Positions 38,852-58,004 of a DNA stretch of 64,000 bases are shown piece by piece. Below the pieces are notes generated by a model. That model was given only the letters and a program-made list of their open reading frames with translations, was not told the DNA's origin and did no database searches. The first letter of the stretch is position 1. Each line of letters begins with the position of its first letter. This DNA is from Bacteroidia bacterium (GTDB lineage: Bacteria; Bacteroidota; Bacteroidia; UBA4408), in contig JALRAS010000002.1 in NCBI GenBank assembly GCA_023262495.1, positions 2,566 through 66,565 on the forward strand, written 5' to 3'. The position numbers were made by a program, and so were the translations under genes.

Positions 38852-40516
38852 ATGAAAAAATTTCGTTTGAGTATACTCACGCTTACCGTAATCGTTTCAA
38901 CAACTTTACATGCGGCAGATATTAATGTAAAACCCCAAACCAAGGAGGTACTCGTTTATCTTCAAAATGCGCAAGTAAGCGCTGTGGCAGAGGTTAGTTT
39001 AACTCCGGGAATGCACAACATTATTTTAGAAGATCTTTCGCAATACCTTGATGAAAATAGCGTACAAATTAAAGGAGATGCTGATTTTACTATTTTATCG
39101 GTGGTAACAAAAAAAAATTATTTAGGAGAAGAGCGAAAAGAGCCCAAACTGAAAGCCCTCGAAGACAGTATTGATGTGATTAATACAAAATTAACTGCTG
39201 TTAAAAATCAGCTTGATGCACTAAATGAGGAGTTGGCAATGATAAAGGCCAACCAAAGCATAACAGGCGACAATGTAGGTGTAAGCACACTTGAACTGGA
39301 AAAAATGGCCAACTTTTATCGTGGACGCATGCTCGAGATACACAACAAACAATCAGAAAATGAGCGGAAACAAGGAAAGCTGCGTGAGAAAATGCAGACA
39401 CTTCAAAATCAATATGTGCAATTAAAAAATCAACAAACTAAAGTGTTTAGTGAAATAACGCTTGCTATCAAATGTAATTCCTCCACCAAGTCAAAAATTC
39501 AATTAACGTATATGGTTGCCAATGCCGGTTGGATGCCTTTTTACGACATTAAATCTGAATCATTAAATGAACCAATAACTATTTTGGGTAAAGCCAATGT
39601 ATATCAAAATACAGGAGAGGATTGGAAAAATGTTAAGCTGTCGTTAAGCACAGGTAATCCAACTTACAGCAATGCAAAACCTAATCTATATCCTTACACG
39701 TTAATGCTTAGCAATCCTGACCAATTATATAAAAAAGGCTACAGCAGGAGCATGGAATTGCCTACCTCAAATTCAGCCGGCATTGTAATGGAAGCACCCG
39801 CTGCTGCTGACGTAAGGATACGCGGAGGCAGAAATGAAAAAGAAGAAGCATATATTGATGGAATAAGAACCAAGAATACATCGGAATACACCAATAATAC
39901 TGAAAATCAAACCAATAATATTTTTGATATTTCTATTCCATACAGCATACCCTCTGACGGTAAAGAGTATGTAGTGGCGATTCAAGAATACAAAGCACCC
40001 GCCATATATTCTTATAGTGCTATTCCAAAACTTGACAAAGATGCTTTTTTGTTGGCCAACCTCATCAATTGGGACCAAACCGGTTTGCTTCCGGGTGATG
40101 CCAACTTGTTTAACGAAGGCACCTTTGTTGGCAAATCATATTTTGAAACCCGTGTTACCAATGATACCATTCCTGTGTCGCTTGGTCGCGAAAAAAATAT
40201 CATTTTAGATCGCAAAAAAGTAAAGAGTTTTACTGAAAAAAACTTTACAGGAGGTACCAAAAAAACAACGCTAGAGTTTGAAATTACGGTACGCAACAAA
40301 AAGAAATCTGAGGTTGAAATTACGATTGAAGATCAAATACCTTTAACTAATACCGTAGAGGTTAGCATTGAGCTCATTAACGGAAGCAACGCTTCTTATG
40401 TGAAAGAAACAGGTAAACTAAAATGGGTGATAAAATTAAAACCATCTGAAAGCAATACGCTTAAGTTTGGTTATGTGATTAAGTATCCTAAAAGGTACAA
40501 TATTTCCAATTTGTAA
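38852..40516 (+). CDS. DUF4140/DUF4139 (MuiA-like) family secreted protein
   Basis: Signal peptide. N-terminal region resembles DUF4140. Long coiled-coil. About 550 aa, typical of this Bacteroidota family. Confidence 0.45.
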   Translation: MKKFRLSILTLTVIVSTTLHAADINVKPQTKEVLVYLQNAQVSAVAEVSLTPGMHNIILEDLSQYLDENSVQIKGDADFTILSVVTKKNYLGEERKEPKLKALEDSIDVINTKLTAVKNQLDALNEELAMIKANQSITGDNVGVSTLELEKMANFYRGRMLEIHNKQSENERKQGKLREKMQTLQNQYVQLKNQQTKVFSEITLAIKCNSSTKSKIQLTYMVANAGWMPFYDIKSESLNEPITILGKANVYQNTGEDWKNVKLSLSTGNPTYSNAKPNLYPYTLMLSNPDQLYKKGYSRSMELPTSNSAGIVMEAPAAADVRIRGGRNEKEEAYIDGIRTKNTSEYTNNTENQTNNIFDISIPYSIPSDGKEYVVAIQEYKAPAIYSYSAIPKLDKDAFLLANLINWDQTGLLPGDANLFNEGTFVGKSYFETRVTNDTIPVSLGREKNIILDRKKVKSFTEKNFTGGTKKTTLEFEITVRNKKKSEVEITIEDQIPLTNTVEVSIELINGSNASYVKETGKLKWVIKLKPSESNTLKFGYVIKYPKRYNISNL

Positions 40517-44100: not shown

Positions 44101-44742
44101 GTAGCCAATATTACTATCGGCAAAGAAAATATCATTGATTCCTCCTGCGCCCGTAGTAACAATATTCCAAGAGGTTCCTCCATTGGTGGTACGCAAAATT
44201 TGCCCATTGCCACACGCTACAAATCCCAAATTGTTTCCTACAAAAAATATTCTTCGCAACGCTACGGTTACTCCGCTCGATATGGTTTGCCAAGTGCTTC
44301 CGCCATTGGTAGTTCTTCTTAAAATACCATTGTTACCTATTACAAATCCGTTGTTTAAATCTTTGAACCATATATCATTGTTGCCCGAACCCACTCCTGA
44401 GCTTTGCTGCACCCAGGTGATACCTCCATCTGTTGTTTTTCTGATATCTGAATTGCCTCCGGTAATCCAACCTGTTGTTTGATTTACAAAATGCACTGCA
44501 TTAATTACACTTGTGTTGCCGGTATTCATCCTCACCCAATCTTTTCCCGAGTTAATTGTTTTAAACAAGCCATGGGTGACAGAGCAATTTCCTATACCAC
44601 TGGACTGATGCACTGCGTATCCGTTATATCTATCGGTAAAGGTGATATCGTTGATATTGGTTCCCATCGGGGAAATAGTGCGCCATTGTGCGTTTGCAAG
44701 GCCGGTAGTAAGCAGCCACAACAGAAATATTTTAAATTTCAT
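41188..44742 (-). CDS. large T9SS cargo protein: N-terminal Ycf48/BNR-like repeat beta-propeller(s), Ig/PKD-like repeats, T9SS type-A C-terminal sorting domain
   Basis: More than 10 repeats of TxDGGxTW. Repeated CENSSIQL...GxxYxW modules. CTD IISPNPVLDVLRVTL...GIYIVAVQTSSGVYHQRVSVIK. Confidence 0.8.
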   Translation of the reverse strand: MKFKIFLLWLLTTGLANAQWRTISPMGTNINDITFTDRYNGYAVHQSSGIGNCSVTHGLFKTINSGKDWVRMNTGNTSVINAVHFVNQTTGWITGGNSDIRKTTDGGITWVQQSSGVGSGNNDIWFKDLNNGFVIGNNGILRRTTNGGSTWQTISSGVTVALRRIFFVGNNLGFVACGNGQILRTTNGGTSWNIVTTGAGGINDIFFADSNIGYLSSSNNLFKTTDGGLTWAPIATGAINPILRIFFTTPNVGYISVDGEGIYKTLNGGLSWTLTTTMNGLYDTFYAMYFLDNQVGFVGGNLGKINKTIDGGATWQNMTSGLGTELFTVHATHSDTAYAGGKEGKIFKTENGGVTYFQQTKAFPSIINKLLFTSNNIGFACSDSGRILKTTDGGKNWILKPTNTTRGFTDMSFINPSQGFASASGGLVFKTTDAGETWDSITTADPNVFRAIWFINADTGFLAGVNKIQRTYDGGLTWSVYTSALASSLQDIVFTNDSLGYCAGSFGKILFTYDCGQSWFQTNNATANAAIEEMWFANDSVGYFAKQTSQSITIDSCKTVGSLSTACLANNWTMNSISMTNGGQYGYCVGGLNGVIHQTEQREIYRTYTSVNEYCAGSGIFVAYYARGFYGATNVFTAQLSNASGSFANPVSIGTYTATPFAYQSGIIYAVIPAGTPAGTNYRIRVIASDPSTIGVDNGFGITIQPSFTPNITLNNSANGAVCAGSNISFTAIPFAGGLNPAYAWTVNGNTINNNSETFTSNSLQDGDLVQVSMQSNLSCASATPVFSNTFVADIITALPLSLANDTVVCENSSIQLNAPTGYTYNWLPPTGLSSANTANPTALITNDITYFLTITDAAGCTGNDSIYINSNPLPQLDLDSSLAVCENSSIQLSAPVGFSYQWFPATGLNDTSIANPVATITANIQYNLIIADSIGCVAFDSILIEAHPLPQLVISADTTICESNCLTLSSSVAGSIQSIVWSPASTLSDSTLLNPTACPTSGTVYTATVVDNNQCAAIDSVFIAVNPLPVMPSVTFDGVTLTSSNADSYQWFVDSTLLVGANSIDYVPLVNGDYWVQVTNNFGCSNVSDPFTVNINNVTASLQNTGIIISPNPVLDVLRVTLSMNYEIRSIVIFNAAGVKVFENKAILNNALYIDTKSFSAGIYIVAVQTSSGVYHQRVSVIK

Positions 44743-44798
44743 ATTTATAATTAATCTTAAAACGGTGCAAATATGATTATTTTGGGAACATGTTAACC

Positions 44799-44832
44799 AA
44801 AAAAAAGGCCTTCAAAATTTTGAAGGCCTTTT
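44799..44832 (-). terminator. rho-independent terminator downstream of the 44854..46302 gene
   Basis: Minus strand reads ggccttcaaaattttgaaggcc followed by tttttttt. Confidence 0.7.
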
Positions 44833-44853
44833 AACAATAGGTTAATGGCGATA

Positions 44854-46302
44854 TTACTTATTGATGATCAATTTTGTAATTACATGATGCTGATTATTTT
44901 GAACAGCTATCATGTAAACGCCATCATTTAAGTCACTGGTTGAAATTATTTGATTGGTATTTAATGATCTTGTTTGCTTCACTACACGACCTGACAAATC
45001 GGTAATCGTAATTAAGCTATTTTCGTTAAGGTGATTAATGGAGATAAACTCTTTGGCAGGATTGGGGAATATGACAATTTCTTTTTGCGCTGATTGTACG
45101 ATTCCTGTTACTGTAGGATCAAATGAAATAACATATTCTCTGACTGTGGTAGCCACTGGAGTGCCATTGTCTGTTGCTGTTACAGTCAACACCAAATCGT
45201 TTACGGCATTGGTTGGTGTATACACATCAACCAAGTATTTGTGATTGCCCATACTGTAGAGTGTAGTAACTGTATAATTAGAAAATCCGCCCATGTTAAA
45301 GGTTGCCCAAGCATCTTGATTGGTTTGTCCTGAAAGTACCATCATGGCATATTGCACGGTATCGCCTGGCAAAAGCACAATGGTATCGCACATATTACTT
45401 ACTAGAATAGGGTCAACATTGGTATTGTTGGTATCGGTGCAAGCACTGAAGTAAAACTGTTGATCATCGAGCCAATTAATACCATCTGACGTTGAAAAAG
45501 GTCCATCATACACATTGGTGGAGTCGCCAAATCTTCCCATTTGAATGAAAGAACTTCCATCTCCCTCATTGGCGCCAACTGTACTTGGGGTACCGCCAAA
45601 ACCATTGACACCACCCGAGGCGCTGCCCGTTGTCCATTGCATATCATTATAGCAGTATCCAACGTTTGTACCGGGAGGTAAAATAGGATCGTTGCCGTCT
45701 GTAATGATTAATTGAAAATCATTGATTTTATCTGATGCCATTGGGAAATAACCAACATTATGCCATCTAACGATTAAACTTGTAGGTGTAATTTTATAGT
45801 ACACCAAACCGCTGGCACTGTCTCTTGTATCAACATCTCCCCAAAAAGGTGCTACCATGATGTATGAAGCACTTGGGAAAGAATCTGATGTAAAAGTAAA
45901 GTAAGGGAAGGCAAAAGAAATATTCCCATTGTTGTTGATATACACCGAGTCATAGGTTGTTCCGTATAAACAAAAACTGAAAGGTAGGGTTATCGCAGGT
46001 GAACTTAAATCATCGTTTCTAAACTCTGGGGGAGTAGCACCTGAAAAAGGAACCACACTAAAAGTGCTGTCAAGCGGTACAATGCAATCGCAAGCTGCAT
46101 TGGCTTTCATTTGTGGAGCTCCCTGGTAAGCGTAATTTGTTTGTAAGTTGTTACCTGAGGGAGGAGCGATTACAGTGTAATTCCCTAATTGATTTTGCAT
46201 TTTCAGCTGCTGATACTGCTGAGAATTTAAGTAAACTGAATTTTGCTGAGCAAAGCCGCAAAAAGAAAGCAAACTAATGGAAAGTGTAAAAAGTTTTTTC
46301 AT
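44854..46302 (-). CDS. secreted hypothetical protein with T9SS C-terminal sorting domain
   Basis: Signal peptide. CTD IVIFPNPAKEFISINHL...GVYMIAVQNNQHHVITKLIINK. Confidence 0.7.
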   Translation of the reverse strand: MKKLFTLSISLLSFCGFAQQNSVYLNSQQYQQLKMQNQLGNYTVIAPPSGNNLQTNYAYQGAPQMKANAACDCIVPLDSTFSVVPFSGATPPEFRNDDLSSPAITLPFSFCLYGTTYDSVYINNNGNISFAFPYFTFTSDSFPSASYIMVAPFWGDVDTRDSASGLVYYKITPTSLIVRWHNVGYFPMASDKINDFQLIITDGNDPILPPGTNVGYCYNDMQWTTGSASGGVNGFGGTPSTVGANEGDGSSFIQMGRFGDSTNVYDGPFSTSDGINWLDDQQFYFSACTDTNNTNVDPILVSNMCDTIVLLPGDTVQYAMMVLSGQTNQDAWATFNMGGFSNYTVTTLYSMGNHKYLVDVYTPTNAVNDLVLTVTATDNGTPVATTVREYVISFDPTVTGIVQSAQKEIVIFPNPAKEFISINHLNENSLITITDLSGRVVKQTRSLNTNQIISTSDLNDGVYMIAVQNNQHHVITKLIINK

Positions 46303-46408
46303 GATGTTTTTTTTTCAAATTTATAATAATTATTTAATGCTCAACAAATTATTAAGGAAATTAATTTGTTTTTAACTCAATGACCGATGGTCTCGGAAAC
46401 AATTTATT

Positions 46409-49399
46409 TTATCTGAATAAGGTAAAAAAACCTTGTTTAGATATGGCTTTTCCCTGTTTTGTTGTTGCATTCACCAAATAATAATAGGTGCCCGAAGGCA
46501 TATCCGCGCCTTGATTTGATTTACCATTCCATGAACCATTGATGTTGTCCCAGGTGTACAAGTTTAGACCCCAGCGATCGAAGATTTGAACATTTAAAGT
46601 GGACAAGTCCGCATTAACTATCTTAAATACTTCATTTTCATTGTCTCCATTAGGTGTAAACACATTAGGAACAAATAGTTCCGATGAGTCTTCACACTCA
46701 AAAAGTATATCAATATTTGCTTGCGCACTGCAAGCGTTTGTATCGATTACAATCAATAGGTATGTGCCTGCATTTTTTTCGCTCACAGGGGCAATTGTCG
46801 GATTTTGTATCGGTGATGTAAAAGACTCAGGGCCTTGCCATGAATAGCTGTTGGCAATAGCAGGAGTTAACAATTTAATGGTATCTCCAAAACAAAACTT
46901 ATTGGTAGCTTCTATTTGCGGTGTGGCAGGAGAAACATTTATGCTAATATCAATACCTGTAGAATCACTCTTACATCCACTTGCGATATCGATTATGGTA
47001 AGATAGTACATGCCTGACATTGCAGGCGTAGCTGAAGCAATAGATACGCTTGGGTTATTGCCGTTAAATCCGGAAGGGCCTGACCATGAGTATTGCATGT
47101 TGCCTAATGCTGTGCTGTTGATATTAATTAGATCTCCAGTACAAACAGGCGAATTACTGTTTAACACAGGAGCTGTAGGTGAAGTATTAACTTGCAACGG
47201 TATAGAGGTTGCAGAGGAACATCCATTGTTGTTATTGGCTGTTAAAGTTACATTATAATTTCCGGCAACAGCATAGGTATGAACAGGGCTAATTGCAGCT
47301 GAGTTGCCCCCATCTCCGAAGTTCCATGTTTGACTGTTTGATGTGCCTGTGGTAAGATTGTTGAATTGTATAGGAACTCCTTCGCAGGCATTGCCAAAAG
47401 AAAAATTAGCCACAGGAGATGGTACAACAGTAACAGTAATTTGATCGGAATTCACACAATTGTTAAGGCCAACCGCTGTAACCGTATAAACTGTATTTAC
47501 ACTTACTGAGCACACAGGATTGGCAATAGAATCATTGCTAAGTCCATTGGCAGGCGACCAAACATAATTAACTCCACCACTTGCTGTAAGCTGTATAGTG
47601 CTCCCTGAACAAAGGTTCACATCCTGACCGGCATTTACTTGAGGAAGTGGGTTAACTGTAACCGTTGAGGTAATAGCACCTGTGCATCCTGTGCTATCTG
47701 TACCTATTACGGTATAGGTAGTGGTAGCAGTTGGACTAACTGTAATGGTATTTGTTGTGGCACCTGTACTCCAAGTGTAACTGTTTGAGCCGGTAGCCGA
47801 TAACAATACCTGCTGACCCGAGCAAATAGTTGGACTATTTACAGTCATGTATAATGGCAATGAGGTAACGTTAATGGTATCTGTTGCCACGCCACACTGA
47901 TTTTGTGCTGTAACATGGTATAATCCGCTGTTATTTACGTTTATGGTTTGACCGCTGCTTCCGTCTTGCCATAAGTAATTGTTAAACCCTGCTCCGGCAT
48001 CAAGTATCAAAGGTGTTGATCCACATACTATGGTATCGTTGCCTAGGTTAATGTTAGCAGTTGGAATAATACTGAAGGTTACGCTTAGTGTATCGGTAAT
48101 TGACCCTGCGTAGGTGATAGCCGTAACAATAAAAGTGCTGTCATTAGAGTAAACATGTTCAGGAAAAAAAAGTGAAGAGGTGTTGTAAACTCCTGAGGAA
48201 ATATCGCCAAAATTCCACAAAACCGAATCTAATGCAGTTGTATCCGATAGAGAAAAGGTAGTAGTATCGCCAAAACAAATGTTGTTGTACGTTATTGATG
48301 GAGGTATAAAAAATGTTTGCAGAAAATTAGGCAACCCACTAAAACAAAGTCCTGTTGGTAATGGTACAGCAAAATCAACAAAATTACAGGCAGTTCCCAA
48401 TGCGTTGGGATTGTTAATACACACCAACTCATTAGAGTTTTTTGCTACATATATTTTACCATCAGGCGCTATTTGTAATGCTCCTAAACCGGCCGAGGCG
48501 GTTCCTACAATTGTTTCGGAGGCAATTATAGCTGCCGGTGTTCCCAAAGCTAAATTATATTGGTAAATATCGGGATGAGCCCAACATCCTACATATAGCT
48601 TTGACCCATCGGGAGAAAACTCAACACCATAGGCGAAACAACTGGTTGAAAACGAAAACTCATTGGTAATTACTCCTGTTAAATTATTAAATGTGAGAAT
48701 ATCAACAACCGAATTATTTGAAACTGCATGAGCCAATCTATTTGAACTTGAACTGGCTTTTAAATACCCTACCCCTAGGTTCCATGGGGAATTATCCACC
48801 GTACCGGTATTGCTCACTATTGGTGTAGTATTAACACCTGCGCTCGTAACAGAATAAACTAAAAATCCATTATTATCATCGTGTGCAATCACCCAAAAAT
48901 CAATATTGTTCGATTTCTTAACTCCGGTAAGTTTTTCGGTTACGGGTGAGGCAAGTTGTATATTTTTAATGGCTGTTACATCTCCTAAACCACCATCAAG
49001 AGTCATGTCCACTTCCGAATAATTTAATCCTGATGAGCCACCCGTAGCAGCAACTGTAAAAACATAATATATGTTAGGATTGCCTGGCTTTGGCACAATG
49101 ATACCCGATTGTGTGGCAGAAGGATCACCAAAGAGTCCTGTTCCATTGGGCATAGCAGTATGATTAGCATTCCACACCGTAATACCATCGGTATAAAATT
49201 TTAATGCTCCTGCGGAATTAGCAATACTGGCACAACCCTCATAGGTATTGATGGCACCATTAGATAACGGAACAGGTGAACCACTATTAAAATCTAAGCC
49301 GGCATTTTGACCAAAATACCAAATATTGGCCTCACCTTGTGCCCTTAGCGTAGTATTAAAAATACAATGAATGAAAACGATAATTAAAAATCTTTTCAT
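46409..49399 (-). CDS. large cell-surface protein with gliding-motility-associated C-terminal domain (CHU_C / T9SS type-B CTD) and PKD/Ig-like repeats
   Basis: C terminus FVPNVFTPNGDNENEVFKI...GTYYYLV...GFFTLFR is the CHU_C domain. N-terminal NIWYFGQNAGLDFNSG region is typical of this family. Confidence 0.8.
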   Translation of the reverse strand: MKRFLIIVFIHCIFNTTLRAQGEANIWYFGQNAGLDFNSGSPVPLSNGAINTYEGCASIANSAGALKFYTDGITVWNANHTAMPNGTGLFGDPSATQSGIIVPKPGNPNIYYVFTVAATGGSSGLNYSEVDMTLDGGLGDVTAIKNIQLASPVTEKLTGVKKSNNIDFWVIAHDDNNGFLVYSVTSAGVNTTPIVSNTGTVDNSPWNLGVGYLKASSSSNRLAHAVSNNSVVDILTFNNLTGVITNEFSFSTSCFAYGVEFSPDGSKLYVGCWAHPDIYQYNLALGTPAAIIASETIVGTASAGLGALQIAPDGKIYVAKNSNELVCINNPNALGTACNFVDFAVPLPTGLCFSGLPNFLQTFFIPPSITYNNICFGDTTTFSLSDTTALDSVLWNFGDISSGVYNTSSLFFPEHVYSNDSTFIVTAITYAGSITDTLSVTFSIIPTANINLGNDTIVCGSTPLILDAGAGFNNYLWQDGSSGQTINVNNSGLYHVTAQNQCGVATDTINVTSLPLYMTVNSPTICSGQQVLLSATGSNSYTWSTGATTNTITVSPTATTTYTVIGTDSTGCTGAITSTVTVNPLPQVNAGQDVNLCSGSTIQLTASGGVNYVWSPANGLSNDSIANPVCSVSVNTVYTVTAVGLNNCVNSDQITVTVVPSPVANFSFGNACEGVPIQFNNLTTGTSNSQTWNFGDGGNSAAISPVHTYAVAGNYNVTLTANNNNGCSSATSIPLQVNTSPTAPVLNSNSPVCTGDLININSTALGNMQYSWSGPSGFNGNNPSVSIASATPAMSGMYYLTIIDIASGCKSDSTGIDISINVSPATPQIEATNKFCFGDTIKLLTPAIANSYSWQGPESFTSPIQNPTIAPVSEKNAGTYLLIVIDTNACSAQANIDILFECEDSSELFVPNVFTPNGDNENEVFKIVNADLSTLNVQIFDRWGLNLYTWDNINGSWNGKSNQGADMPSGTYYYLVNATTKQGKAISKQGFFTLFR

Positions 49400-49632: not shown

Positions 49633-51213
49633 CTACTTTTCTTCTATCGGATTTTCCTCTTCCTTTACTTTGGTACCGTCAATCTTGTACTCCTTGTTAT
49701 CCTTGTAAACTATGGTTGAATACAAGGTTCCTTCGGTATCAAATTTACGCCAATTACCTTCCTTATTTCCCATCAAATATTCACCTTCTTCTTTGGTTTT
49801 TCCGTTGTAGTAATAGTAGGAAAACTTCCCGTTTTCCAATCCATCAATATAGGTGCCTTCTTCCGCAATTTTACCGTTTCCATTGTAGTAACTTTTCCAC
49901 TTGCCTGTTTTCACACCTGCCTTAAATTCTCCTTCATACTTCATATCACCGTCATTGCTAATCCATGGTCCTTCTTTTTCACCTTCTATAAATAACCCTT
50001 TTGTAACAACTTCGCTGCTATCGGTATACTCAACCATTTCGCCTTCGGGTAAACCTCTTATAAAACTTTCGGTACGCAAAATATTTCCGCTTTCATAATA
50101 CCACTTCCAATCACCTGTTGGTTTATTATTATTATCATACTTTCCTCTTTGTTCTATTTTTCCGTTTTGATGATAATAAATCCATTCACCAATCTTTTTA
50201 TCGTTGATGTACTCTCCCTCTGCCTTTAACTCACCGGTAATATAAAACTCCTTCCATTTGCCTTGTTTATAACCTCGTGCATCATAAATACCTTCACCAA
50301 TTTTATAACCATCTTTGAATAATTCACTGCCAATAATCTCACCTTCTTCACTAAATTTTCTGGTAAATCCTTCCGCTAAGCCATCTTTATAAGTACCTGA
50401 CGTTTTCTTTTTTCCCGATTCATAATAGGTTGTTTTTACATCTAACTTAACCAATTCCGCCACATTTACCTGAAGCACACCATCGACATATTTTTCGGCC
50501 TTTGCCAGGTTGCCATCCGGTTCAAATATTTTTAAATAACCATCTAATTTATCATCTCTGTAACGCATTTCCTTTTTCACTGTTCCATTAGGATAAAATT
50601 CTTTCCAAATACCTTGTTTCAAATTTAATTTATCTCTCCTATTTATTTTTTCTTCGCGGCTAATAAAACCATTTTTATAGATGGTAATGGTTTGTATTAA
50701 GCCATCGGGCAAATATTCCTTTCCTATTCCATTTTCTTTTCCTTTATCAAAAGGCACTTCTTTATAGCGTACATTATTTTTTCGGTAATATGCCTTGCCC
50801 TGTCTGGTATCTGCTACAAAAGGTTCTTCAGAAACTATATGCCCGGTTTCTACGTCATACACGGTTTTCATTCCTTGTTTTTTACCTTCCTTGTATTCAT
50901 AGGTAAGCGTTAGTTTGCCCTCTTCATTATAAAATTTCCAAAGACTGTCAAGCTGTGCATCTTTTCTATTTCCTTCCGATTTTAAAACACCCGATTCATA
51001 ATAGGTTTTCCAATATCCATCAGGTTTACCATTTTTTATAAAACCTTCACTGCTCAACCTTCCGCTAGGGTATGTATACTTGGTAAATCCATCCTTTACC
51101 TGATTTTCTTGAGCACAAATTTTACCTAACATAATAAAAAACAATAGGCCTGACATAACAAACCTAAAAATTCTAAAATTTGGCATATAAAAAAATGTTG
51201 TAGCAGTTGTCAT
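49633..51213 (-). CDS. MORN-repeat-variant (YwqK-like) repeat protein, exported
   Basis: About 12 tandem G-x-W-x-x-YY-x-NG-like repeats. Hydrophobic N terminus (probable start at MSGLLFFIMLGKICAQ). Confidence 0.65.
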   Translation of the reverse strand: MTTATTFFYMPNFRIFRFVMSGLLFFIMLGKICAQENQVKDGFTKYTYPSGRLSSEGFIKNGKPDGYWKTYYESGVLKSEGNRKDAQLDSLWKFYNEEGKLTLTYEYKEGKKQGMKTVYDVETGHIVSEEPFVADTRQGKAYYRKNNVRYKEVPFDKGKENGIGKEYLPDGLIQTITIYKNGFISREEKINRRDKLNLKQGIWKEFYPNGTVKKEMRYRDDKLDGYLKIFEPDGNLAKAEKYVDGVLQVNVAELVKLDVKTTYYESGKKKTSGTYKDGLAEGFTRKFSEEGEIIGSELFKDGYKIGEGIYDARGYKQGKWKEFYITGELKAEGEYINDKKIGEWIYYHQNGKIEQRGKYDNNNKPTGDWKWYYESGNILRTESFIRGLPEGEMVEYTDSSEVVTKGLFIEGEKEGPWISNDGDMKYEGEFKAGVKTGKWKSYYNGNGKIAEEGTYIDGLENGKFSYYYYNGKTKEEGEYLMGNKEGNWRKFDTEGTLYSTIVYKDNKEYKIDGTKVKEEENPIEEK

Positions 51214-51223
51214 AGTAGTTATT

Positions 51224-52198
51224 TTATAGACCTAGCTGAGCAGATATTTCAAGCATTTTTTTGATTGACTTTTCTGCTTGTTTTATTAACGAAGGTTCAA
51301 TGATTATTTCAGGTTTTTCATCTCTTAAACAAGCATATAATTTTTCTAAAGTATTCAATTTCATGTGCGGACAATCATTGCAAGCACAATTATTTTCAGG
51401 TGGCGCAGGTATCAACGTTTTACCTGGTGCACGCTTTGCCATTTCATGTAATATACCTGTTTCGGTTGCAACAATAAACTCTTGATGTTCACTTTTAATC
51501 ACAAAATTGAGCAGTGCTGTGGTACTTCCTATAAACTCTGCTTGATCTAATACAGGTTCTTCACATTCAGGATGTGCAATAAGCAATGCACGAGGATGAG
51601 TATGTTTGAGTAAACTTATTTTTTTTGCAGAAAAAATTTCATGAACCATACAACTACCATCCCATAACAACATATTTCTTCCTGTAACTTTATTCACATA
51701 TCTGCCTAAGTTTTTATCAGGAGCAAAAATAATAGGTTGATCTTTTGGAATACTGTTTACAATTTGAACTGCATTGCTACTGGTACAAACAATATCGGTA
51801 AGGGCTTTAATTTCGGCAGTACAATTAATATAACTGATAACAAGATGATGAGGGTGTTCATCTTTAAATTTTTTAAAAGCCAGCGGAGGGCAACTATCAG
51901 CCAAAGAACAACCTGCCTTTAAATCGGGGATTAAAACTTTTTTATCAGGACACAATATTTTTGCTGTTTCAGCCATGAAATGTACCCCTGCAAACACAAT
52001 GATGTCGGCATTTGTTTGAGCAGCCTGTTGCGACAAACCTAAGCTATCGCCAATGTAGTCGGCAACATCCTGAATATCGCCCTCTTGGTAGTAATGTGCC
52101 AATATAATGGCATTCTTTTCGGCTTTCAGCTTTTTTATATCTTCGAATATGTTTTTGGTCTGTAGGGTCATCTTTGCGGATAGCGTTTGAGGGTTCAA
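51224..52198 (-). CDS. nadA: quinolinate synthase
   Basis: AHYYQ...[16 protein letters not shown] and Cys ligands for the [4Fe-4S] cluster. 324 aa. Confidence 0.9.
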
Positions 52199-52778
52199 AT
52201 ATCAACTAAAAATTATTTCGAATCATTTTTATATTTTTCAACGCGTAGCTTTTATCTATAAAAAGAAAAATAAATTAATTTTTTAAAAAATATGTTTTTA
52301 ATATAGAGCTGTTAGTACTGTTAGTTTATTTATTGAACAACGTGTGAAAATGTGATTTATTATTTTTTAATAACAATTATTTAACTGTTTTGATTTGCTT
52401 ATTTCCTTTAATTACAAGGGTTATTCAGTTTTATTAACATCTTGTTAGTTCACTTTGTTTGGATAACTTTAGTTAATATTGATCTTTGATTTTGTGTAAA
52501 AAGTTGTGTGCATTTTTCAATAATTTGCTTGATGTTAAATTAGGATTTATCAACTTATATTGCATACAGTGCGTCTATTTAATTCTCCAAATTATTTTTT
52601 TACTTCATATCACACTTTATCAACAGCAATTAACAATTTCTTTGTTTAAAAATAGATATACGCGTAAAACCCTTTATTAACAAGCTTCTTAAACCAATTA
52701 CAAATGTAAAAATAGTAATTAAAATGTTAATACAATTCTTAAAGTGCGAGCAATGTACTTTACTAAATAGCTATTTTT

Positions 52779-53237
52779 GTGAATACATATTTCATTTACA
52801 ACTCTCCAATGAAAATTGCTATAGGTTCTGATCATGCTGGTTTTGAAGCCAAACAATTAATAATTAATTATTTCAATCAAAAGCATATCAACTATCAAGA
52901 TTTTGGTACATATTCCGATCAAAGTGTTGATTATCCTGATTTTGCTCATCCTGTTGCACATGCGGTAGAACATAAAGCATGTGAACTTGGTATATTAATT
53001 TGTGGTAGTGGGCAAGGTGTTAATATTACTGCCAACAAGCATGTTGGTATCCGCTCTGCACTTTGTTGGAACGCACAAATAGCAGCTTTAAGCAGACAGC
53101 ACAACGATGCTAACATTTTAGCAGTACCCGGAAGATTCTTAAACGAACAAGAAATCATCAATATTGTGGAAACATTTATTAATACATCTTTTGAAGGTGG
53201 GCGTCATGCCAACAGAATACAAAAAATACCATGTTGA
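52779..53237 (+). CDS. rpiB: ribose-5-phosphate isomerase B
   Basis: MKIAIGSDHAGFEAK...GILICGSGQGVNITANK RpiB/LacAB motifs. The real start is probably the Met at about 52809. Confidence 0.88.
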   Translation: MNTYFIYNSPMKIAIGSDHAGFEAKQLIINYFNQKHINYQDFGTYSDQSVDYPDFAHPVAHAVEHKACELGILICGSGQGVNITANKHVGIRSALCWNAQIAALSRQHNDANILAVPGRFLNEQEIINIVETFINTSFEGGRHANRIQKIPC

Positions 53238-54445
53238 ATAAAGAAGGAATGAAACGTCAAGAATTTATTTCTCGAGCTGAAAAATATTTAAATAGCCCCG
53301 AAAATATAAACATCAGGGCCACTGAAAATAATAAAATAAATAAGCAGGTAGCACTTGCTAAAACCTATTTTGATAAGTATGAATTAGCCATTCAAAGAAC
53401 TGCCTATCTTAAAAATAAGGCACTTGAAAATAGTGATAAGTTGCTTGCTAATTTTGAGTTTAATTTAAACAATACAAAAGTTAAAGTTATTTGGGCCACC
53501 GATGCTGTTGATGCACTTAAAGAAATAGCAGACATTAGCAAAGAACTTTCATTACCTGTTTATTTTGATGAGGTAAATGTTATCAAAGAAGTTGAGAAGG
53601 AAATTGGTAACTCGAGGCATCACATACCAAGAGCTGACAAACAAAGTAAACAATATATTGGGTTAACAAAAGCTGATTTTATTGTGGCCGACAGCAGTAG
53701 TATTGTATGCTTAAATCATGATAAGCATTCAACACAAATGCAAGGCAAAGCTAAGGCACAAATTTTTATTGCCGGTATTGATGCTTTGATACAAAGCTTT
53801 AATGATATTGAATTGATAGCATCTTTACAAAGCACCAATAAATATGGAGAACCAATACATGCTAACATTTGTATTTACAATGGCAATAAATTGAATGAAG
53901 ATGATGCCTTGAAAGAGGATTTATTTGTGATTTTACTTGATAATGGTCGAACACAAATTTTATCTGATCATGAGCAGCGATCTATTTTAAATTGTATTCA
54001 TTGTGAAGCATGCAAGAGAGCGTGTCCGGTTACCTTGTTTGCTGGTGAAAATGCCTACGGCACCATTTATTCTGGACCTCACGGGGCATTGGTTAGCCAT
54101 CATATCGAAAATAATGAAGATGCTACACACTTAGCTTTTGCTTCAACCCTGTGTTCAAAGTGCAATGATGTGTGCCCTATGAATATTGATTTATCTGCTT
54201 TCATGGCTTACAGTAGAAGAAATGCCGTTAAAAATAAACAAGTAAGTAAAACCGAAAACTTAACCATTTATTTTTGGAAAAATGCGGTAATGAAGCGCAG
54301 CAACATGGATAAAGGTGGTGCAAAAGTAAAAGCATTTATGTTTAAACAAATTCTCAGAAAAGCATGGGGTAATAAACGTGAAATGCCTGTGGTTGCTACA
54401 AAATCTTTTAATCAATTATGGCGAGAAAGAAAAGATTTTGGATAA
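53231..54445 (+). CDS. LutB-like iron-sulfur protein (LUD domain plus 4Fe-4S dicluster)
   Basis: LUD-domain motif IGLTKADFIVADSSSIV. Two Cys clusters CIHCEACKRACPV and CSKCNDVCPM. Overlaps the rpiB stop by 7 nt. Confidence 0.55.
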   Translation: MLNKEGMKRQEFISRAEKYLNSPENINIRATENNKINKQVALAKTYFDKYELAIQRTAYLKNKALENSDKLLANFEFNLNNTKVKVIWATDAVDALKEIADISKELSLPVYFDEVNVIKEVEKEIGNSRHHIPRADKQSKQYIGLTKADFIVADSSSIVCLNHDKHSTQMQGKAKAQIFIAGIDALIQSFNDIELIASLQSTNKYGEPIHANICIYNGNKLNEDDALKEDLFVILLDNGRTQILSDHEQRSILNCIHCEACKRACPVTLFAGENAYGTIYSGPHGALVSHHIENNEDATHLAFASTLCSKCNDVCPMNIDLSAFMAYSRRNAVKNKQVSKTENLTIYFWKNAVMKRSNMDKGGAKVKAFMFKQILRKAWGNKREMPVVATKSFNQLWRERKDFG

Positions 54446-54528
54446 TGATGTAAATACAATTCAACATACATTAAAACTATCTAACTACTTTTTCGTTTCT
54501 TTTAAATTATCAAACATCAATACATACG

Positions 54529-55881
54529 GTGTATTCCAGCGTTAAATATGTTGTCCTTGTGTTATTGCTTGTGCAAATTTTATTGCTTGCATGCAACAGG
54601 AAAGTGGCACCAACTTTTGAAAAAGATGTTGCAAGCATTATTTATGCTAAATGTACCAAGTGTCATAATCCAAATGGCGTTGCTCCCTTTTCGCTTACTT
54701 CATTTGATAACATAAAAAAAAGAGCTAAAACAATTGCCTTTGTAACAAAAAATAGGATAATGCCACCTTGGCCAGCCGACTATACATACACTCACTTTGT
54801 TGGCGAACAGGTTTTAAGCGATGAAGAAATTCAAATTTTGCAAGATTGGGTGCAAGCAGGTTGTTTGCCGGGTGATTTAACAAATGCTCCCAATGCACCT
54901 GTTTACCAATTTAAATCATTTCTAGGTAAGCCCGACTTGGTGCTAACGTATAGCGATACCATGTATTTAAAAGGTGATCACCTAGACCGCTTTTATTTAA
55001 TGAAGTTTCCATATCAAATGTCTCAAGATACAATAGTAAAGGCCATTGAATTTGTACCCGGAAATACCAGTGTTGTGCATCATGTCAACGGTCATATCAT
55101 ACAGTATGATGATGGGATGAAAAAAGATATCTTTTCAGGCAAAAGAGTGATTAGTTCAGATAGCATAGAAGCAGATAAAGTTTATAGTGAGTTGGATGTG
55201 GCCAATGATGATGGCAGCTATCCTGTTTTAACACAAAGCGCAGTAAACTATTTGCCCGGTGTTATGCCAACGGTTTATCCTGAAGGATTATCTGGTTTTA
55301 AATTAAAAAAACAAGGGGCTTTTTTATTTAAAGATATTCATTATGGCCCAACTTCTAGAGATACATTTGATTACAGTAGAATTAATATTTTTTTCGCTAA
55401 AAAAATGCCTGCTCGACTAACGCGAGAATTGCAAATGGGCACATTAGGAATTACGGATATTGAACCACCTTTGGTTATTCCTCCAAACCAAATTAAACGT
55501 TTTATAACCAAAGCAAAAATCAATAAAGATATTAGCATATTGACCATCAATCCACACATGCATAAGTTGGGCAAATCTTTCTGGGCCTACGCCCTACCCC
55601 CTTCAGGCGATACTATTCCATTGATTAAAATTAAGCAATGGGATTTTAATTGGCAGTTTTTTTACACCTTTAAAAAAATGGTGAGAATACCTGCAGGCAG
55701 CACCATCATTGTTGAAGGCATATTCGACAATACTATTCATAATAAAAATAATCCTTTTCACCCTCCGCGAGAAATTGCAGAAAGAGCAGGTAGTATGCGG
55801 GCATCAGATGAAATGTTTCAGTTCATTATCACCCTCATGGATTATCAGCCCGGTGATGAAAACATTTCTCTTGAACCCTAA
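54529..55881 (+). CDS. c-type cytochrome domain fused to a PHM/DBH-like copper type II monooxygenase domain
   Basis: Signal/anchor. CTKCH heme-binding motif with downstream RIMPPW. Candidate CuH ligands VVHHVNGH plus H in IHYGP. CuM-like NPHMHKLGK (compare PHM HTHHLGK) plus downstream Met (SDEMFQF). Confidence 0.5.
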   Translation: MYSSVKYVVLVLLLVQILLLACNRKVAPTFEKDVASIIYAKCTKCHNPNGVAPFSLTSFDNIKKRAKTIAFVTKNRIMPPWPADYTYTHFVGEQVLSDEEIQILQDWVQAGCLPGDLTNAPNAPVYQFKSFLGKPDLVLTYSDTMYLKGDHLDRFYLMKFPYQMSQDTIVKAIEFVPGNTSVVHHVNGHIIQYDDGMKKDIFSGKRVISSDSIEADKVYSELDVANDDGSYPVLTQSAVNYLPGVMPTVYPEGLSGFKLKKQGAFLFKDIHYGPTSRDTFDYSRINIFFAKKMPARLTRELQMGTLGITDIEPPLVIPPNQIKRFITKAKINKDISILTINPHMHKLGKSFWAYALPPSGDTIPLIKIKQWDFNWQFFYTFKKMVRIPAGSTIIVEGIFDNTIHNKNNPFHPPREIAERAGSMRASDEMFQFIITLMDYQPGDENISLEP

Positions 55882-56141
55882 TAGGTAATTAAATCATTTT
55901 AGGAAGATTTTTTTACCAATGGAAAATATAGGAAAGTGTAAAGTTTTAAAGCGACATCCATCTTAAAAGCACTAGCTACTTTCATGCTCAGTTTCAACAG
56001 ATGAATGTGTTTTTTAAAAGCATAAAGTAAATTTGTTTTTGTTATGATGCGTAAGCTTCAGGTGCTATCTGTATAACCTATTCTATATCCTAAAGCGTTA
56101 AGGTATTCATTTCAAATACTTATTTGTTTTAACTTTGCTGC

Positions 56142-58004
56142 ATGTTTAATCATTATGATGTTATAGTAGTTGGTGCCGGTCATGCCGGATGCGAAGCAGC
56201 GGCTGCAGCAGCCAATATGGGATCAAAGGTGCTGCTGGTAACTATGAATATGCAAACCATTGCCCAAATGAGCTGCAATCCTGCTATGGGCGGTATTGCC
56301 AAAGGGCAAATAGTAAGGGAGATTGATGCATTGGGCGGATATAGTGGAATTGTGTCTGATAATTCGGCCTTGCAGTTTCGAATGCTTAATCGATCAAAAG
56401 GTGCAGCTATGTGGAGCCCGCGCACGCAAAACGACAGAGCACGCTTTGCCGAAGAATGGCGATTAATGCTGGAACAAACACCTAATATTGATTTTTGGCA
56501 AGATAATGTGAGCTCCTTGATTATCAAAAATAATAAGGTTGAGGGTGTGGTTACCGGTATGGGACTTTCTATATCATGCGGTGCTGTTATTATCACTAGC
56601 GGTACTTTTTTAAATGGAGTGATACATATTGGCGAAAAGCAATTTGGAGGTGGCAGAACGGGTGAAAAAGCTTCACATGGTATAACTGAGCAATTAGTGT
56701 CACTGGGCTTTGAAGCGGGCCGAATGAAAACAGGCACTCCACCTAGAATTGATGGTAGAAGTTTAGATTATACAAAAATGGAAGTTCAGCATGGTGATGA
56801 GCAACCATCAAAGTTTTCATTTAGCTATACTAAGCCCCTTACGCATCAATTGCCATGTCATATCACCTACACCAATCCTATTGTTCACGAAATTTTAAGA
56901 TCCGGCTTCGATAAGTCACCCATGTATCAGGGCAGAATTTTAGGCAATGGTCCACGCTACTGCCCTTCAATTGAGGATAAGGTTTCAAGATTTGCAGAGC
57001 GCGACAGACATCAATTGTTTGTTGAGCCCGAAGGTTGGAAAACAGTTGAGATTTATGTCAACGGCTTCAGCAGTTCATTGCCTGAAGAGGTACAGCAAAA
57101 GGCATTGGTTAATATACCCGGTTTTGAGCACGCAAAAATGTTTCGTCCCGGCTACGCTATCGAATATGATTACTTCCCTCCTACGCAGCTTCAGTTAACT
57201 TTAGAAACAAAAGAAATTCAAGGTTTATACTTTGCAGGGCAAATTAATGGTACAACAGGATATGAAGAAGCAGCCTGCCAAGGTTTAATGGCAGGCATAA
57301 ACGCGCATTTAAAATTAAACGAGAAAGAACCTTTCGTTCTTGATCGATCTGAAGCATATATTGGAGTGTTGATTGATGATTTGGTAACAAAAGGTACTGA
57401 TGAACCTTATCGCATGTTTACCTCTCGCGCTGAGTACAGAATTTTACTTAGACAAGATAATGCCGATACGCGTTTAACACCGCTTGGCTTTAAAATTGGT
57501 TTGGCCTCAACCGAAAGATTGAAAAGGGTAGAAGAGAAGGTGAAGCAGGTAAATGACCTAGTTAGTTTTATTAAGAGCGAGAGTATTAGTCCTGAAGAAA
57601 TAAACGAGGCCCTGTTGTCAAAAGATAGTGCAAAGATCTCTCAAAAGGTTAAGATGTTTGGAGTTTTAGCAAGACCGAATATTGATTTAATGGTATTTAA
57701 AGAACATATACCTCGTATTGCTGAAGTCTTTGAAAACTATGAAGATGATGAATTGGAGCAGGCTGAGATTTTGGTGAAGTATGAAGGTTATATTCAAAAA
57801 GAAAAGGATTTGGTGGAAAAGCAATATCGTTTAGAATCCTTGGTATTGCATGATGATTTTGATTATACAAGATTGACTTCCTTGGGCGCAGAAGCGAGAG
57901 AAAAGCTTCAAAAAGTACGGCCGAAAACGATTGGACAGGCATCACGAATTAGCGGTATTACGCCTTCCGATATTTCTATCTTAATGGTTTATTTGGGACG
58001 ATGA
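56142..58004 (+). CDS. mnmG: tRNA uridine-5-carboxymethylaminomethyl(34) synthesis enzyme MnmG
   Basis: YDVIVVGAGHAGCEAA FAD motif and GidA family layout. 620 aa. Confidence 0.95.
   Translation: MFNHYDVIVVGAGHAGCEAAAAAANMGSKVLLVTMNMQTIAQMSCNPAMGGIAKGQIVREIDALGGYSGIVSDNSALQFRMLNRSKGAAMWSPRTQNDRARFAEEWRLMLEQTPNIDFWQDNVSSLIIKNNKVEGVVTGMGLSISCGAVIITSGTFLNGVIHIGEKQFGGGRTGEKASHGITEQLVSLGFEAGRMKTGTPPRIDGRSLDYTKMEVQHGDEQPSKFSFSYTKPLTHQLPCHITYTNPIVHEILRSGFDKSPMYQGRILGNGPRYCPSIEDKVSRFAERDRHQLFVEPEGWKTVEIYVNGFSSSLPEEVQQKALVNIPGFEHAKMFRPGYAIEYDYFPPTQLQLTLETKEIQGLYFAGQINGTTGYEEAACQGLMAGINAHLKLNEKEPFVLDRSEAYIGVLIDDLVTKGTDEPYRMFTSRAEYRILLRQDNADTRLTPLGFKIGLASTERLKRVEEKVKQVNDLVSFIKSESISPEEINEALLSKDSAKISQKVKMFGVLARPNIDLMVFKEHIPRIAEVFENYEDDELEQAEILVKYEGYIQKEKDLVEKQYRLESLVLHDDFDYTRLTSLGAEAREKLQKVRPKTIGQASRISGITPSDISILMVYLGR

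What the first reader, a model, noticed from the sequence alone, without database searches (positions are those of the whole stretch)
53231..55881. c-type cytochrome fused to a PHM/DBH-like copper monooxygenase, downstream of a coupled rpiB / LutB-like Fe-S pair
The 450-aa protein has a single CxxCH heme motif (CTKCHNPNG) within a cytochrome-c/PSCyt-like N-terminal domain. Its C-terminal region carries an HH...H / H-x-H...M arrangement, and the HMHKLGK stretch closely resembles the CuM site HTHHLGK of peptidylglycine alpha-hydroxylating monooxygenase. PHM/DBH enzymes normally receive electrons from ascorbate, so a built-in heme domain would be an alternative electron entry route. The upstream LutB-like Fe-S protein overlaps rpiB by 7 nt, so the three genes may be co-expressed. 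The substrate is unknown.
Basis: partly seen in the sequence, partly recalled or inferred. Interest (0 to 1): 0.55.

Follow-up and report, generated by a model that had tools for sequence, protein, structure and literature searches.

The report
Heme-fused bacterial PHM-like copper monooxygenase
This gene encodes a bacterial lipoprotein that joins a heme (cytochrome c) module to the two-copper core of the animal enzymes that make noradrenaline and amidated peptide hormones; it belongs to a very large bacterial family for which I found no characterised member, and its neighbourhood with a lactate-utilisation-like gene is a local accident.

Summary
ORF 54529-55881 (+) encodes a 450-aa lipoprotein with one CxxCH (C42/C45/H46), an invariant Met78, and a C-terminal region matching PHM/DBH. 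Pfam Cu2_monoox_C scores above its cutoff. The AlphaFold model (pLDDT 86) has PHM and DBH as its top 30 PDB matches (probability 1.00). hhalign maps all six copper ligands one-to-one: H184/H185/H271 to CuH H107/H108/H172, and H343/H345/M429 to CuM H242/H244/M314. In 133 of 134 diverse family representatives, all ten heme and copper ligands are kept. The family has about 17,000 clusters at 50% identity, mostly Bacteroidota, and I found no paper describing it. PHM's peptidylglycine-anchoring residues are not conserved, so the substrate is different and unknown. The cytochrome fold rests on motif and profile evidence only; the fold search was inconclusive. The proposed link to LutB-like/rpiB fails. 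Only the closest clade shares that synteny, most of its members have two extra genes in between, and 79 of 80 other genomes have no LutB-like gene nearby. The real conserved partner is a thioredoxin-fold lipoprotein, adjacent in 56% of loci and fused in some relatives. It is absent from this window. Verdict: a new variant of a known enzyme kind, of moderate to good interest.

The parts
54529..55881 (+). Whole gene: 450-aa lipoprotein made of a cytochrome c domain and a PHM/DBH-like two-copper core (stop codon included)
   Evidence: ORF; more than 3,849 homologues; 16,996 50%-identity clusters
54529..54594 (+). Signal peptide with lipobox (LLAC, Cys22)
   Evidence: Read directly from the sequence. 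C22 is invariant in the 35-sequence alignment but present in only 28/77 distant representatives, some of which carry T9SS tails instead
54604..54864 (+). Monoheme cytochrome c-type domain (about aa 26-112), helical
   Evidence: Pfam Cytochrome_CBB3 and Haem_bd match below cutoff in the window protein. Cytochrome_CBB3 is hit by 21/35 members and above cutoff in relatives P0125 and P0139. The domain model has pLDDT 87.8 and is all-helical. Fold search was inconclusive
54652..54666 (+). CxxCH heme c attachment motif (C42-T-K-C45-H46)
   Evidence: Invariant; 141/141 representatives
54760..54762 (+). Met78 (MPPWPA motif), candidate sixth heme ligand
   Evidence: Invariant; 145/145. The ligand role is inferred
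54904..55413 (+). PHM N-terminal-like beta-sandwich domain carrying the CuH site (about aa 126-295)
   Evidence: Foldseek matches to PHM/DBH; extended hhalign alignment; relatives P0226, P0216 and P0201 match Pfam Cu2_monooxygen PF01082
55078..55083 (+). H184-H185, aligned to PHM CuH ligands H107-H108
   Evidence: hhalign; invariant; 146/146 and 145/146
55339..55341 (+). H271 (IHYG), aligned to PHM CuH ligand H172 (VHYG)
   Evidence: hhalign; 147/148
55414..55878 (+). PHM C-terminal-like beta-sandwich domain carrying the CuM site (about aa 296-450)
   Evidence: Pfam Cu2_monoox_C, 26.8 bits against a cutoff of 23; 35/35 members; Foldseek
55555..55563 (+). H343-M-H345 (HMHKLGK), aligned to PHM CuM ligands H242-T-H244 (HTHHLGK)
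   Evidence: hhalign; 148/148 each
55813..55815 (+). M429 (SDEM), aligned to PHM CuM ligand M314 (SDEM)
   Evidence: hhalign; 142/143. M423 is not conserved (39/70)
53231..54445 (+). Upstream neighbour, judged NOT part of the system: a short LutB-like LUD + 2x[4Fe-4S] protein (true start possibly 53249)
   Evidence: Pfam and NCBIfam (TIGR00273 at 160 bits against a cutoff of 445); synteny analysis
52779..53237 (+). rpiB, paired with the LutB-like gene across this clade and not linked to the target

Best explanation
The gene encodes a periplasm-facing lipoprotein. An N-terminal monoheme c-type cytochrome domain (CxxCH plus Met78) is tethered to a PHM/DBH-type catalytic core of two beta-sandwich domains. 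The core carries two separate copper sites, CuH (H184, H185, H271) and CuM (H343, H345, M429). The most likely mechanism has four steps. (1) The heme takes single electrons from a periplasmic donor, replacing ascorbate, which reduces the animal enzymes. (2) The heme passes them to CuH. (3) CuH passes them to CuM. (4) O2 is activated at CuM and one oxygen atom is inserted into a C-H bond of a substrate. The substrate is not a glycine-extended peptide and remains unknown. What is shown: domain identity, fold, conservation of all ligands, the export signal, and the size and distribution of the family. What is inferred: that heme and copper are actually bound, the direction of electron flow, monooxygenase chemistry, and the role of the thioredoxin-fold partner found beside or fused to most relatives. 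That partner could supply reductant, mature the heme or load the copper.
For: Pfam Cu2_monoox_C scores above its gathering cutoff in the window protein (26.8 against 23 bits) and matches 35/35 family members. Distant relatives also match the PHM N-domain model PF01082, and P0226 does so above cutoff. The AF2 model has pLDDT 86 and pTM 0.75. The top 30 Foldseek PDB matches are all PHM or DBH, with probability 1.00 and E about 1e-11, and the next matches have E above 9e-5. hhalign of the family against rat PHM (sequence verified as 100% identical to 1SDW_A) aligns H184/185 to H107/108, H271 to H172, H343/345 to H242/244 and M429 to M314, with the local motifs VHH, HYG, HxHxLGK and SDEM shared. 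The predicted strands place these residues on beta-strands, as in PHM. All ten cofactor residues are invariant at 28-48% identity and in 133/134 representatives. The signal peptide and lipobox fit periplasmic heme attachment. Cytochrome_CBB3 is hit by 21/35 members and above cutoff in some relatives. The heme domain is present in every relative examined, including T9SS-secreted forms, as expected for an obligatory redox partner.
Against: There is no biochemical evidence for any family member, and eight literature searches found none. Sequence similarity to PHM is remote. hhalign gives E 9e-4 and probability 23%, and HMM searches of PDB sequences do not reach PHM. Foldseek TM-scores are modest (0.33-0.52), partly because of the extra domain and hinge differences. 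The isolated N-terminal domain model has no significant structural match; the best is cytochrome c-551 at E 1.2. PHM's substrate anchors R240, N316 and Y318 are replaced by N341, Q431 and I433, and PHM's disulfides are absent, so the chemistry cannot simply be transferred from PHM.
Confidence: 0.65

Rival explanations
1. The protein is a heme/copper redox enzyme but not a C-H hydroxylase. It would work with the thioredoxin-fold (AhpC/TSA-type) partner as a periplasmic oxidase or peroxidase or as a thiol-linked redox module. Examples are reducing O2, H2O2 or superoxide, or oxidising a thiol or a metal, with electrons moving between the thiol, the heme and the copper.
For: The only conserved neighbour is an AhpC/TSA-Redoxin-family lipoprotein with invariant Cys71-Pro72 and Cys199. 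It is adjacent in 38/68 loci and fused N-terminally in P0122, P0261, P0266 and P0139. Its nearest solved relatives are thiol-disulfide oxidoreductases, including ResA. No substrate-related gene is conserved nearby.
Against: The CuM His2-Met site and the separate CuH His3 site are the specific signature of the hydroxylating PHM/DBH family and are fully retained. Pocket-lining positions vary widely across the family, which suggests diversifying organic substrates rather than one small-molecule oxidant. The partner is missing from this window and from 44% of loci, so it is not obligatory in cis. It may simply be a ResA-like heme-maturation or copper-loading factor.
Confidence: 0.2
2. The PHM-like core is a non-catalytic scaffold or a pure electron-transfer or binding module (the PHM/PNGase F fold also occurs in non-redox proteins), and the protein acts only as a membrane-anchored cytochrome.
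For: NCBI annotates several members simply as 'cytochrome c'. Weaker Foldseek matches include PNGase and jelly-roll capsid proteins.
Against: All six copper ligands are kept in 133/134 diverse representatives. That is hard to explain without metal binding at both sites. PHM and DBH outscore every non-redox fold by more than six orders of magnitude in E-value.
Confidence: 0.07
3. One reading: rpiB, the LutB-like Fe-S protein and the heme-copper protein form one co-expressed functional unit, with the Fe-S protein feeding the monooxygenase.
For: The genes are on the same strand. The gap is 83 nt with no detectable intrinsic terminator. The closest relative (84% identity) has the same arrangement.
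Against: LutB-like has no signal peptide and would be cytoplasmic, whereas the target is an exported lipoprotein. LutB-like lies within 10 kb in only 1 of 80 genome loci. In relatives at 71-79% identity, a TonB-dependent receptor and a T9SS esterase separate the two genes, so the adjacency here comes from an indel of about 4.8 kb.
Confidence: 0.03

Closest known systems
Peptidylglycine alpha-hydroxylating monooxygenase (PHM; catalytic core of PAM; PDB 1PHM, 1SDW, 3MLL)
   Same: Both have a two-beta-sandwich core. The CuH site is His3 (HH...H) and the CuM site is His2-Met (HxH...M), all aligned in register. The local motifs VHH, HYG, HxHxLGK and SDEM are shared. Pfam PF03712 scores above cutoff.
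   Different: Overall identity is about 12-14%. The peptidylglycine carboxylate anchors R240, N316 and Y318 are replaced by N341, Q431 and I433 and are variable across the family. None of PHM's disulfides is present, since the core has no Cys. There is an insertion of about 22 residues between the HH pair and the third His. The protein is a bacterial lipoprotein. A fused c-type heme domain takes the place of soluble ascorbate as the presumed reductant.
Dopamine beta-hydroxylase (PDB 4ZEL) and its relatives tyramine beta-hydroxylase and MOXD1
   Same: The catalytic core and copper ligands are the same. DBH gives the best TM-score normalised to the query (0.42). Like DBH, this protein has an extra N-terminal domain ahead of the core. 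DOMON domains are heme- or sugar-binding modules in other proteins (my own knowledge).
   Different: The N-terminal module is a CxxCH cytochrome c domain, not DOMON. There is no dimerisation domain. The origin is bacterial.
Copper enzymes with tethered or dedicated heme donors: cytochrome c-fused copper nitrite reductases, and cellobiose dehydrogenase cytochrome domain to LPMO (functional analogy only, from my own knowledge)
   Same: A heme domain delivers single electrons to a copper centre, removing the need for a small-molecule reductant.
   Different: These enzymes have unrelated folds and copper sites (T1/T2 Cu in NiR, histidine brace in LPMO). They are not homologous to this protein.
ResA/TlpA-type thiol-disulfide oxidoreductases and the thioredoxin-like proteins 2YWI, 2CVB and 3U5R (closest to the family's conserved partner, which is not in this window)
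   Same: The partner has a thioredoxin fold, a CPx[C/S] motif, a cis-Pro (TPE) and a C-terminal GC shared with 2YWI and 2CVB.
   Different: The second Cys of CxxC is often Ser. The partner is a lipoprotein. It is genetically linked or fused to the heme-copper enzyme. Its role is untested.

Membership tests
PHM/DBH copper type II monooxygenase superfamily (Pfam PF01082 + PF03712) | C-terminal catalytic domain recognised by the curated model PF03712 above the gathering score | tested here: met
   26.8 bits against a cutoff of 23, E 4e-6; 35/35 family members match
PHM/DBH copper type II monooxygenase superfamily (Pfam PF01082 + PF03712) | N-terminal catalytic domain recognised by PF01082 | tested here: not met
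   The window protein has no PF01082 hit at E<=1. Distant relatives aligned in register do hit it: P0226 at 34.1 bits, above the cutoff of 30, and P0216 and P0201 below cutoff
PHM/DBH copper type II monooxygenase superfamily (Pfam PF01082 + PF03712) | Two-domain beta-sandwich fold | tested here: met
   The Foldseek top 30 are all PHM or DBH, probability 1.00, E 2e-11 to 4e-8, with about 330-370 aligned columns
PHM/DBH copper type II monooxygenase superfamily (Pfam PF01082 + PF03712) | CuH site: three His (HH ... H) | tested here: met
   H184/H185/H271 align to H107/H108/H172 and are invariant.
PHM/DBH copper type II monooxygenase superfamily (Pfam PF01082 + PF03712) | CuM site: HxH ... Met | tested here: met
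   H343/H345/M429 align to H242/H244/M314 and are invariant
PHM/DBH copper type II monooxygenase superfamily (Pfam PF01082 + PF03712) | Ascorbate-dependent, O2-dependent hydroxylation | not testable with these tools
   Needs biochemistry
PHM proper (peptidylglycine hydroxylase) | Substrate carboxylate-binding residues R240, Y318 and N316 | tested here: not met
   The aligned residues are N341, I433 and Q431. These positions are highly variable in the family
PHM proper (peptidylglycine hydroxylase) | Conserved intradomain disulfides | tested here: not met
   There is no Cys in residues 126-450 of the window protein (sequence)
Class I-type monoheme c-type cytochrome domain | CxxCH heme attachment motif | tested here: met
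   C42/C45/H46 are invariant: 141/141 representatives
Class I-type monoheme c-type cytochrome domain | Distal axial ligand (Met) C-terminal to the motif | tested here: inconclusive
   M78 is invariant (145/145) and is the only invariant Met or His in the domain, but ligation is inferred
Class I-type monoheme c-type cytochrome domain | Export to the periplasm, required for heme c attachment | tested here: met
   N-terminal hydrophobic signal with lipobox LLAC
Class I-type monoheme c-type cytochrome domain | Curated cytochrome c profile above the gathering score | tested here: not met
   In the window protein, Cytochrome_CBB3 scores 18.1 bits and Haem_bd 23.2 bits, both against a cutoff of 27. 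Relatives P0125 (34.1) and P0139 (37.1) pass
Class I-type monoheme c-type cytochrome domain | Cytochrome c fold | tested here: inconclusive
   The domain model has pLDDT 87.8 and four helices, with a helix running into the CxxCH. The best Foldseek matches are cytochrome c-551 (E 1.2) and KustC0563 (E 4.2), neither significant. A PDB profile search gives only weak cytochrome hits
LutABC lactate-utilisation system (for the upstream gene) | LutB equivalog score, with lutA and lutC neighbours | tested here: not met
   TIGR00273 scores 160 bits against a cutoff of 445. The protein is about 60 aa shorter than, and about 35% identical to, canonical Bacteroidia LutB. No lutA or lutC lies next to it in the window or in relatives

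The most novel reading that the evidence does not exclude
This protein represents a very large bacterial radiation (about 17,000 clusters at 50% identity) of ascorbate-independent PHM/DBH-type monooxygenases. Every member is hard-wired to a c-type heme, and most are genetically coupled or fused to a periplasmic thiol-disulfide oxidoreductase. That would define a new electron-supply route (thiol or respiratory chain to heme c to CuH to CuM) for non-coupled binuclear copper enzymes. The variable pocket residues, and the existence of lipoprotein, T9SS-secreted and PKD/Ig-decorated forms, would mean the family oxidises a range of still unknown envelope or extracellular substrates.
Probability: 0.35. 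Interest if true: 0.75.

Novelty: new variant of a known kind. Interest (0 to 1): 0.58.

Why it matters
All mechanistic knowledge of PHM/DBH-type copper monooxygenases comes from a few animal enzymes that depend on ascorbate. How electrons reach CuH and cross to CuM is still debated. A bacterial version with a covalently tethered heme donor would give a self-contained system, expressible in bacteria, for studying that electron transfer. It would also show that this chemistry is widespread in Bacteroidota cell envelopes and point to unknown hydroxylated metabolites, lipids or proteins. In practical terms, thousands of database entries labelled 'hypothetical protein' or 'cytochrome c' could be given a more informative annotation.

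Tried and rejected
(1) Sequence searches of the PDB with the single protein and with the family profile did not reach PHM. The homology is visible only through the Pfam model, hhalign and fold comparison.

(2) Modelling the N-terminal domain alone and searching the PDB gave no significant match. The cytochrome fold therefore stays unconfirmed by structure.

(3) Model coordinates are not exposed in the sandbox. Ligand distances and heme-to-CuH distances could not be measured.

(4) The sigma-70 promoter scan shows no enrichment (20 found against 20.0 expected), which is uninformative for Bacteroidota. No terminator was found in 52100-56300.

(5) Eight literature searches and reading PMC12164859 found no description of bacterial cytochrome c/PHM fusions.

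(6) M423 as the CuM methionine was rejected. It lies in the only low-confidence loop of the model (residues 420-426) and is not conserved (39/70).

(7) The window ORF 8724-9272, a weak hit to the partner HMM, is a glutathione peroxidase and not the partner.

(8) The LutB-like/rpiB functional link was rejected on synteny.
Full report
**Observation.**
- rpiB is at 52779-53237 (+).
- A LutB-like gene is at 53231-54445 (+).
- A 450-aa ORF is at 54529-55881 (+).

The 450-aa protein starts with a hydrophobic signal ending in a lipobox (LLAC, Cys22). It has exactly one CxxCH (C42-T-K-C45-H46). It also carries HH (184-185), IHYG (H271), HMHKLGK (H343, H345) and SDEM (M429). RpiB and the LUD + 2x[4Fe-4S] architecture of the upstream protein are confirmed.

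**What the 450-aa protein is.**
- Pfam's Cu2_monoox_C model (PF03712, built on PHM/DBH) matches residues 327-405 at 26.8 bits, above its curated cutoff of 23. It matches all 35 members of a family alignment.
- An AlphaFold2 model built on that alignment is confident: mean pLDDT 86.1, pTM 0.75. It shows a helical N-terminal domain followed by two beta-rich domains.
- In a Foldseek search of the PDB, the top 30 matches are all peptidylglycine alpha-hydroxylating monooxygenase or human dopamine beta-hydroxylase. They have probability 1.00 and E from 2e-11 to 4e-8. The next match is at E 9e-5 and is unrelated.
- HMM searches of PDB sequences alone do not reach PHM, so the relationship is remote.
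- hhalign of the family against that sequence (E 9e-4) gave an in-register mapping of every copper ligand:

| Window residue | PHM residue | Shared motif |
|---|---|---|
| H184/H185 | H107/H108 | VHH |
| H271 | H172 | HYG |
| H343/H345 | H242/H244 | HxHxLGK |
| M429 | M314 | SDEM |

- The model's secondary structure puts these residues on or at the ends of beta-strands.
- M423, the other candidate Met, lies in the only low-confidence loop of the model. It is not conserved in the wider family.

**Conservation.**
- In 12 divergent relatives (28-48% identity), including members that hit both Pfam PHM domain models, the invariant set still includes C42, C45, H46, M78, H184, H185, H271, H343, H345 and M429.
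- Of the 150 best 50%-identity representatives, 134 cover all ten positions, and 133 of those keep all ten.
- The positions aligned to PHM's substrate anchors are highly variable: N341 for R240, Q431 for N316, I433 for Y318. The core has no cysteines, so PHM's disulfides are absent.
- The protein is therefore a member of the PHM/DBH superfamily but not a peptidylglycine hydroxylase. The family appears to have diversified in substrate.

**The heme domain.**
- Cytochrome_CBB3 (18.1 bits) and Haem_bd (23.2 bits) are below cutoff in the window protein. Cytochrome_CBB3 is hit by 21/35 members and above cutoff in relatives P0125 and P0139.
- A separate model of residues 26-126 is confident (pLDDT 87.8) and has four helices, with a helix leading into the CxxCH.
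- Foldseek gives no significant match for that model. The best are cytochrome c-551 at E 1.2 and the KustC0563 cytochrome at E 4.2.
- A profile search of the PDB returns only weak cytochrome hits, including the heme domain of hydrazine synthase alpha.
- The evidence for a cytochrome c domain is strong on four counts: the motif, the invariant Met78, the export signal and the profile matches. The fold itself is not confirmed.

**Family size and architectures.**
- An exhaustive HMM search finds 16,996 representative clusters at E<=1e-3 and 3,022 at E<=1e-30.
- At least 596 species-level genomes carry a relative. Nearly all of the best 80 are Bacteroidota MAGs, and one is a cultured strain, Nemorincola caseinilytica.
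- Source annotations are 'hypothetical protein', 'cytochrome c' or, rarely, 'copper type II ascorbate-dependent monooxygenase-like protein'.
- Longer relatives add T9SS sorting tails, PKD/Ig, EF-hand or Kunitz domains. The lipobox Cys is present in only 28/77 representatives. The family therefore includes both lipoprotein and secreted forms, and every one aligned keeps the CxxCH.
- Eight literature searches found no paper on these proteins.

**Genomic context: the LutB-like link fails.**
- tblastn of the window's neighbours against 80 genome loci (10 kb flanks) finds LutB-like, rpiB, nadA and mnmG only in L001, the closest genome.
- In L001, and in two metagenomic relatives at 71-79% identity, the gene order is rpiB, LutB-like, TonB-dependent receptor, BD-FAE esterase with a T9SS tail, target, mnmG, methyltransferase.
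- Only the closest relative (84%) shares the window's direct adjacency. The adjacency is therefore the product of an indel of about 4.8 kb within one small clade.
- LutB-like has no export signal, whereas the target is exported.
- No terminator is detectable in the 83-nt gap. Read-through cannot be excluded, but it would not imply a functional unit.
- The 7-nt rpiB/LutB-like overlap depends on start choice. Orthologues are called at 398-399 aa and do not overlap rpiB.

**The real conserved partner.**
- Clustering all ORFs around the target in the 80 loci shows one recurrent neighbour: a roughly 200-aa AhpC/TSA-Redoxin lipoprotein.
- With an HMM, it is adjacent in 38 of 68 loci with complete flanks: 34 directly upstream on the same strand and 4 downstream.
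- It has an invariant Cys-Pro (CPx[C/S]), the thioredoxin cis-Pro, and an invariant C-terminal GC.
- Its closest solved relatives are the thioredoxin-like proteins 2YWI, 2CVB and 3U5R, followed by ResA, the cytochrome c maturation reductase.
- In P0122, P0261, P0266 and, in tandem, P0139, this domain is fused N-terminally to the cytochrome/PHM-like unit. That is independent evidence for a functional link.
- The partner is absent from the 64-kb window. The only weak hit, at 8724-9272, is a glutathione peroxidase.

**Mechanism (inferred).**
- The heme c domain most likely replaces ascorbate as the one-electron donor to CuH. CuM then activates O2 for substrate oxygenation, as in PHM and DBH.
- The partner may supply reducing equivalents, keep the apocytochrome cysteines reduced for heme attachment, or load copper. 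None of these roles was tested.
- I put 0.65 on the heme-driven monooxygenase reading and 0.2 on a non-hydroxylating oxidase, peroxidase or thiol-redox role. I put under 0.1 on a non-catalytic role and about 0.03 on the LutB-like operon idea.

**Verdict.** The operon suggestion is not supported. The protein is a new variant of a known enzyme kind and belongs to a very large family with no characterised member that I could find. Interest is 0.58.

Noticed in passing
window 53231-54445 (+), with rpiB at 52779-53237: The LutB-like protein is a short paralogue (398-404 aa). It is about 35% identical to the canonical 459-460-aa Bacteroidia LutB and scores far below the LutB equivalog cutoff. It always follows rpiB in this clade and has no lutA or lutC beside it, so an orphan LUD/Fe-S protein is paired with a pentose-phosphate isomerase and its function is unknown.
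   Followed up: partly
window 54446-54528, compared with L001 5209-9991, L081 1252-6000 and L083 1221-6000: Relatives carry a TonB-dependent receptor and a BD-FAE esterase with a T9SS tail between LutB-like and the target. The window and its closest relative (L084/L085) lack this two-gene segment of about 4.8 kb, which is a clade-level indel.
   Followed up: partly
Loci L002 5823-6440, L033 9275-9859, L077 9357-9929 and others; fused forms P0122, P0261, P0266, P0139: A thioredoxin-fold (AhpC/TSA) lipoprotein with CPx[C/S] and a C-terminal GC is the conserved neighbour of the family (38/68 loci) and is fused to it in some proteins. It is absent from this window.
   Followed up: yes
Family representatives P0125, P0163, P0201, P0216, P0226, P0270: Distant family members add EF-hand, Kunitz, PKD/Ig or InlB-B-repeat domains and T9SS sorting tails. 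This implies secreted or surface-displayed heme-copper enzymes.
   Followed up: partly
window 41188-49399 (-): There are three consecutive large T9SS cargo genes: a 1184-aa BNR/Sortilin/YCF48-like protein with a Por_Secre_tail, a 482-aa NIDO-domain protein with a Por_Secre_tail, and a 996-aa PKD/Ig protein with a CHU_C signal.
   Followed up: no
window 9304-10431 (+): A cyclophilin-type peptidyl-prolyl isomerase is fused to fn3 and a T9SS C-terminal sorting domain. This would be a secreted PPIase, which is unusual.
   Followed up: no
window 49633-51213 (-): A 526-aa protein is built almost entirely of MORN-variant repeats. It is conserved (83% identity) next to nadA in the closest genome, L001.
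   Followed up: no
window 38852-40516 (+): A DUF4140/DUF4139 protein of unknown function.
   Followed up: no
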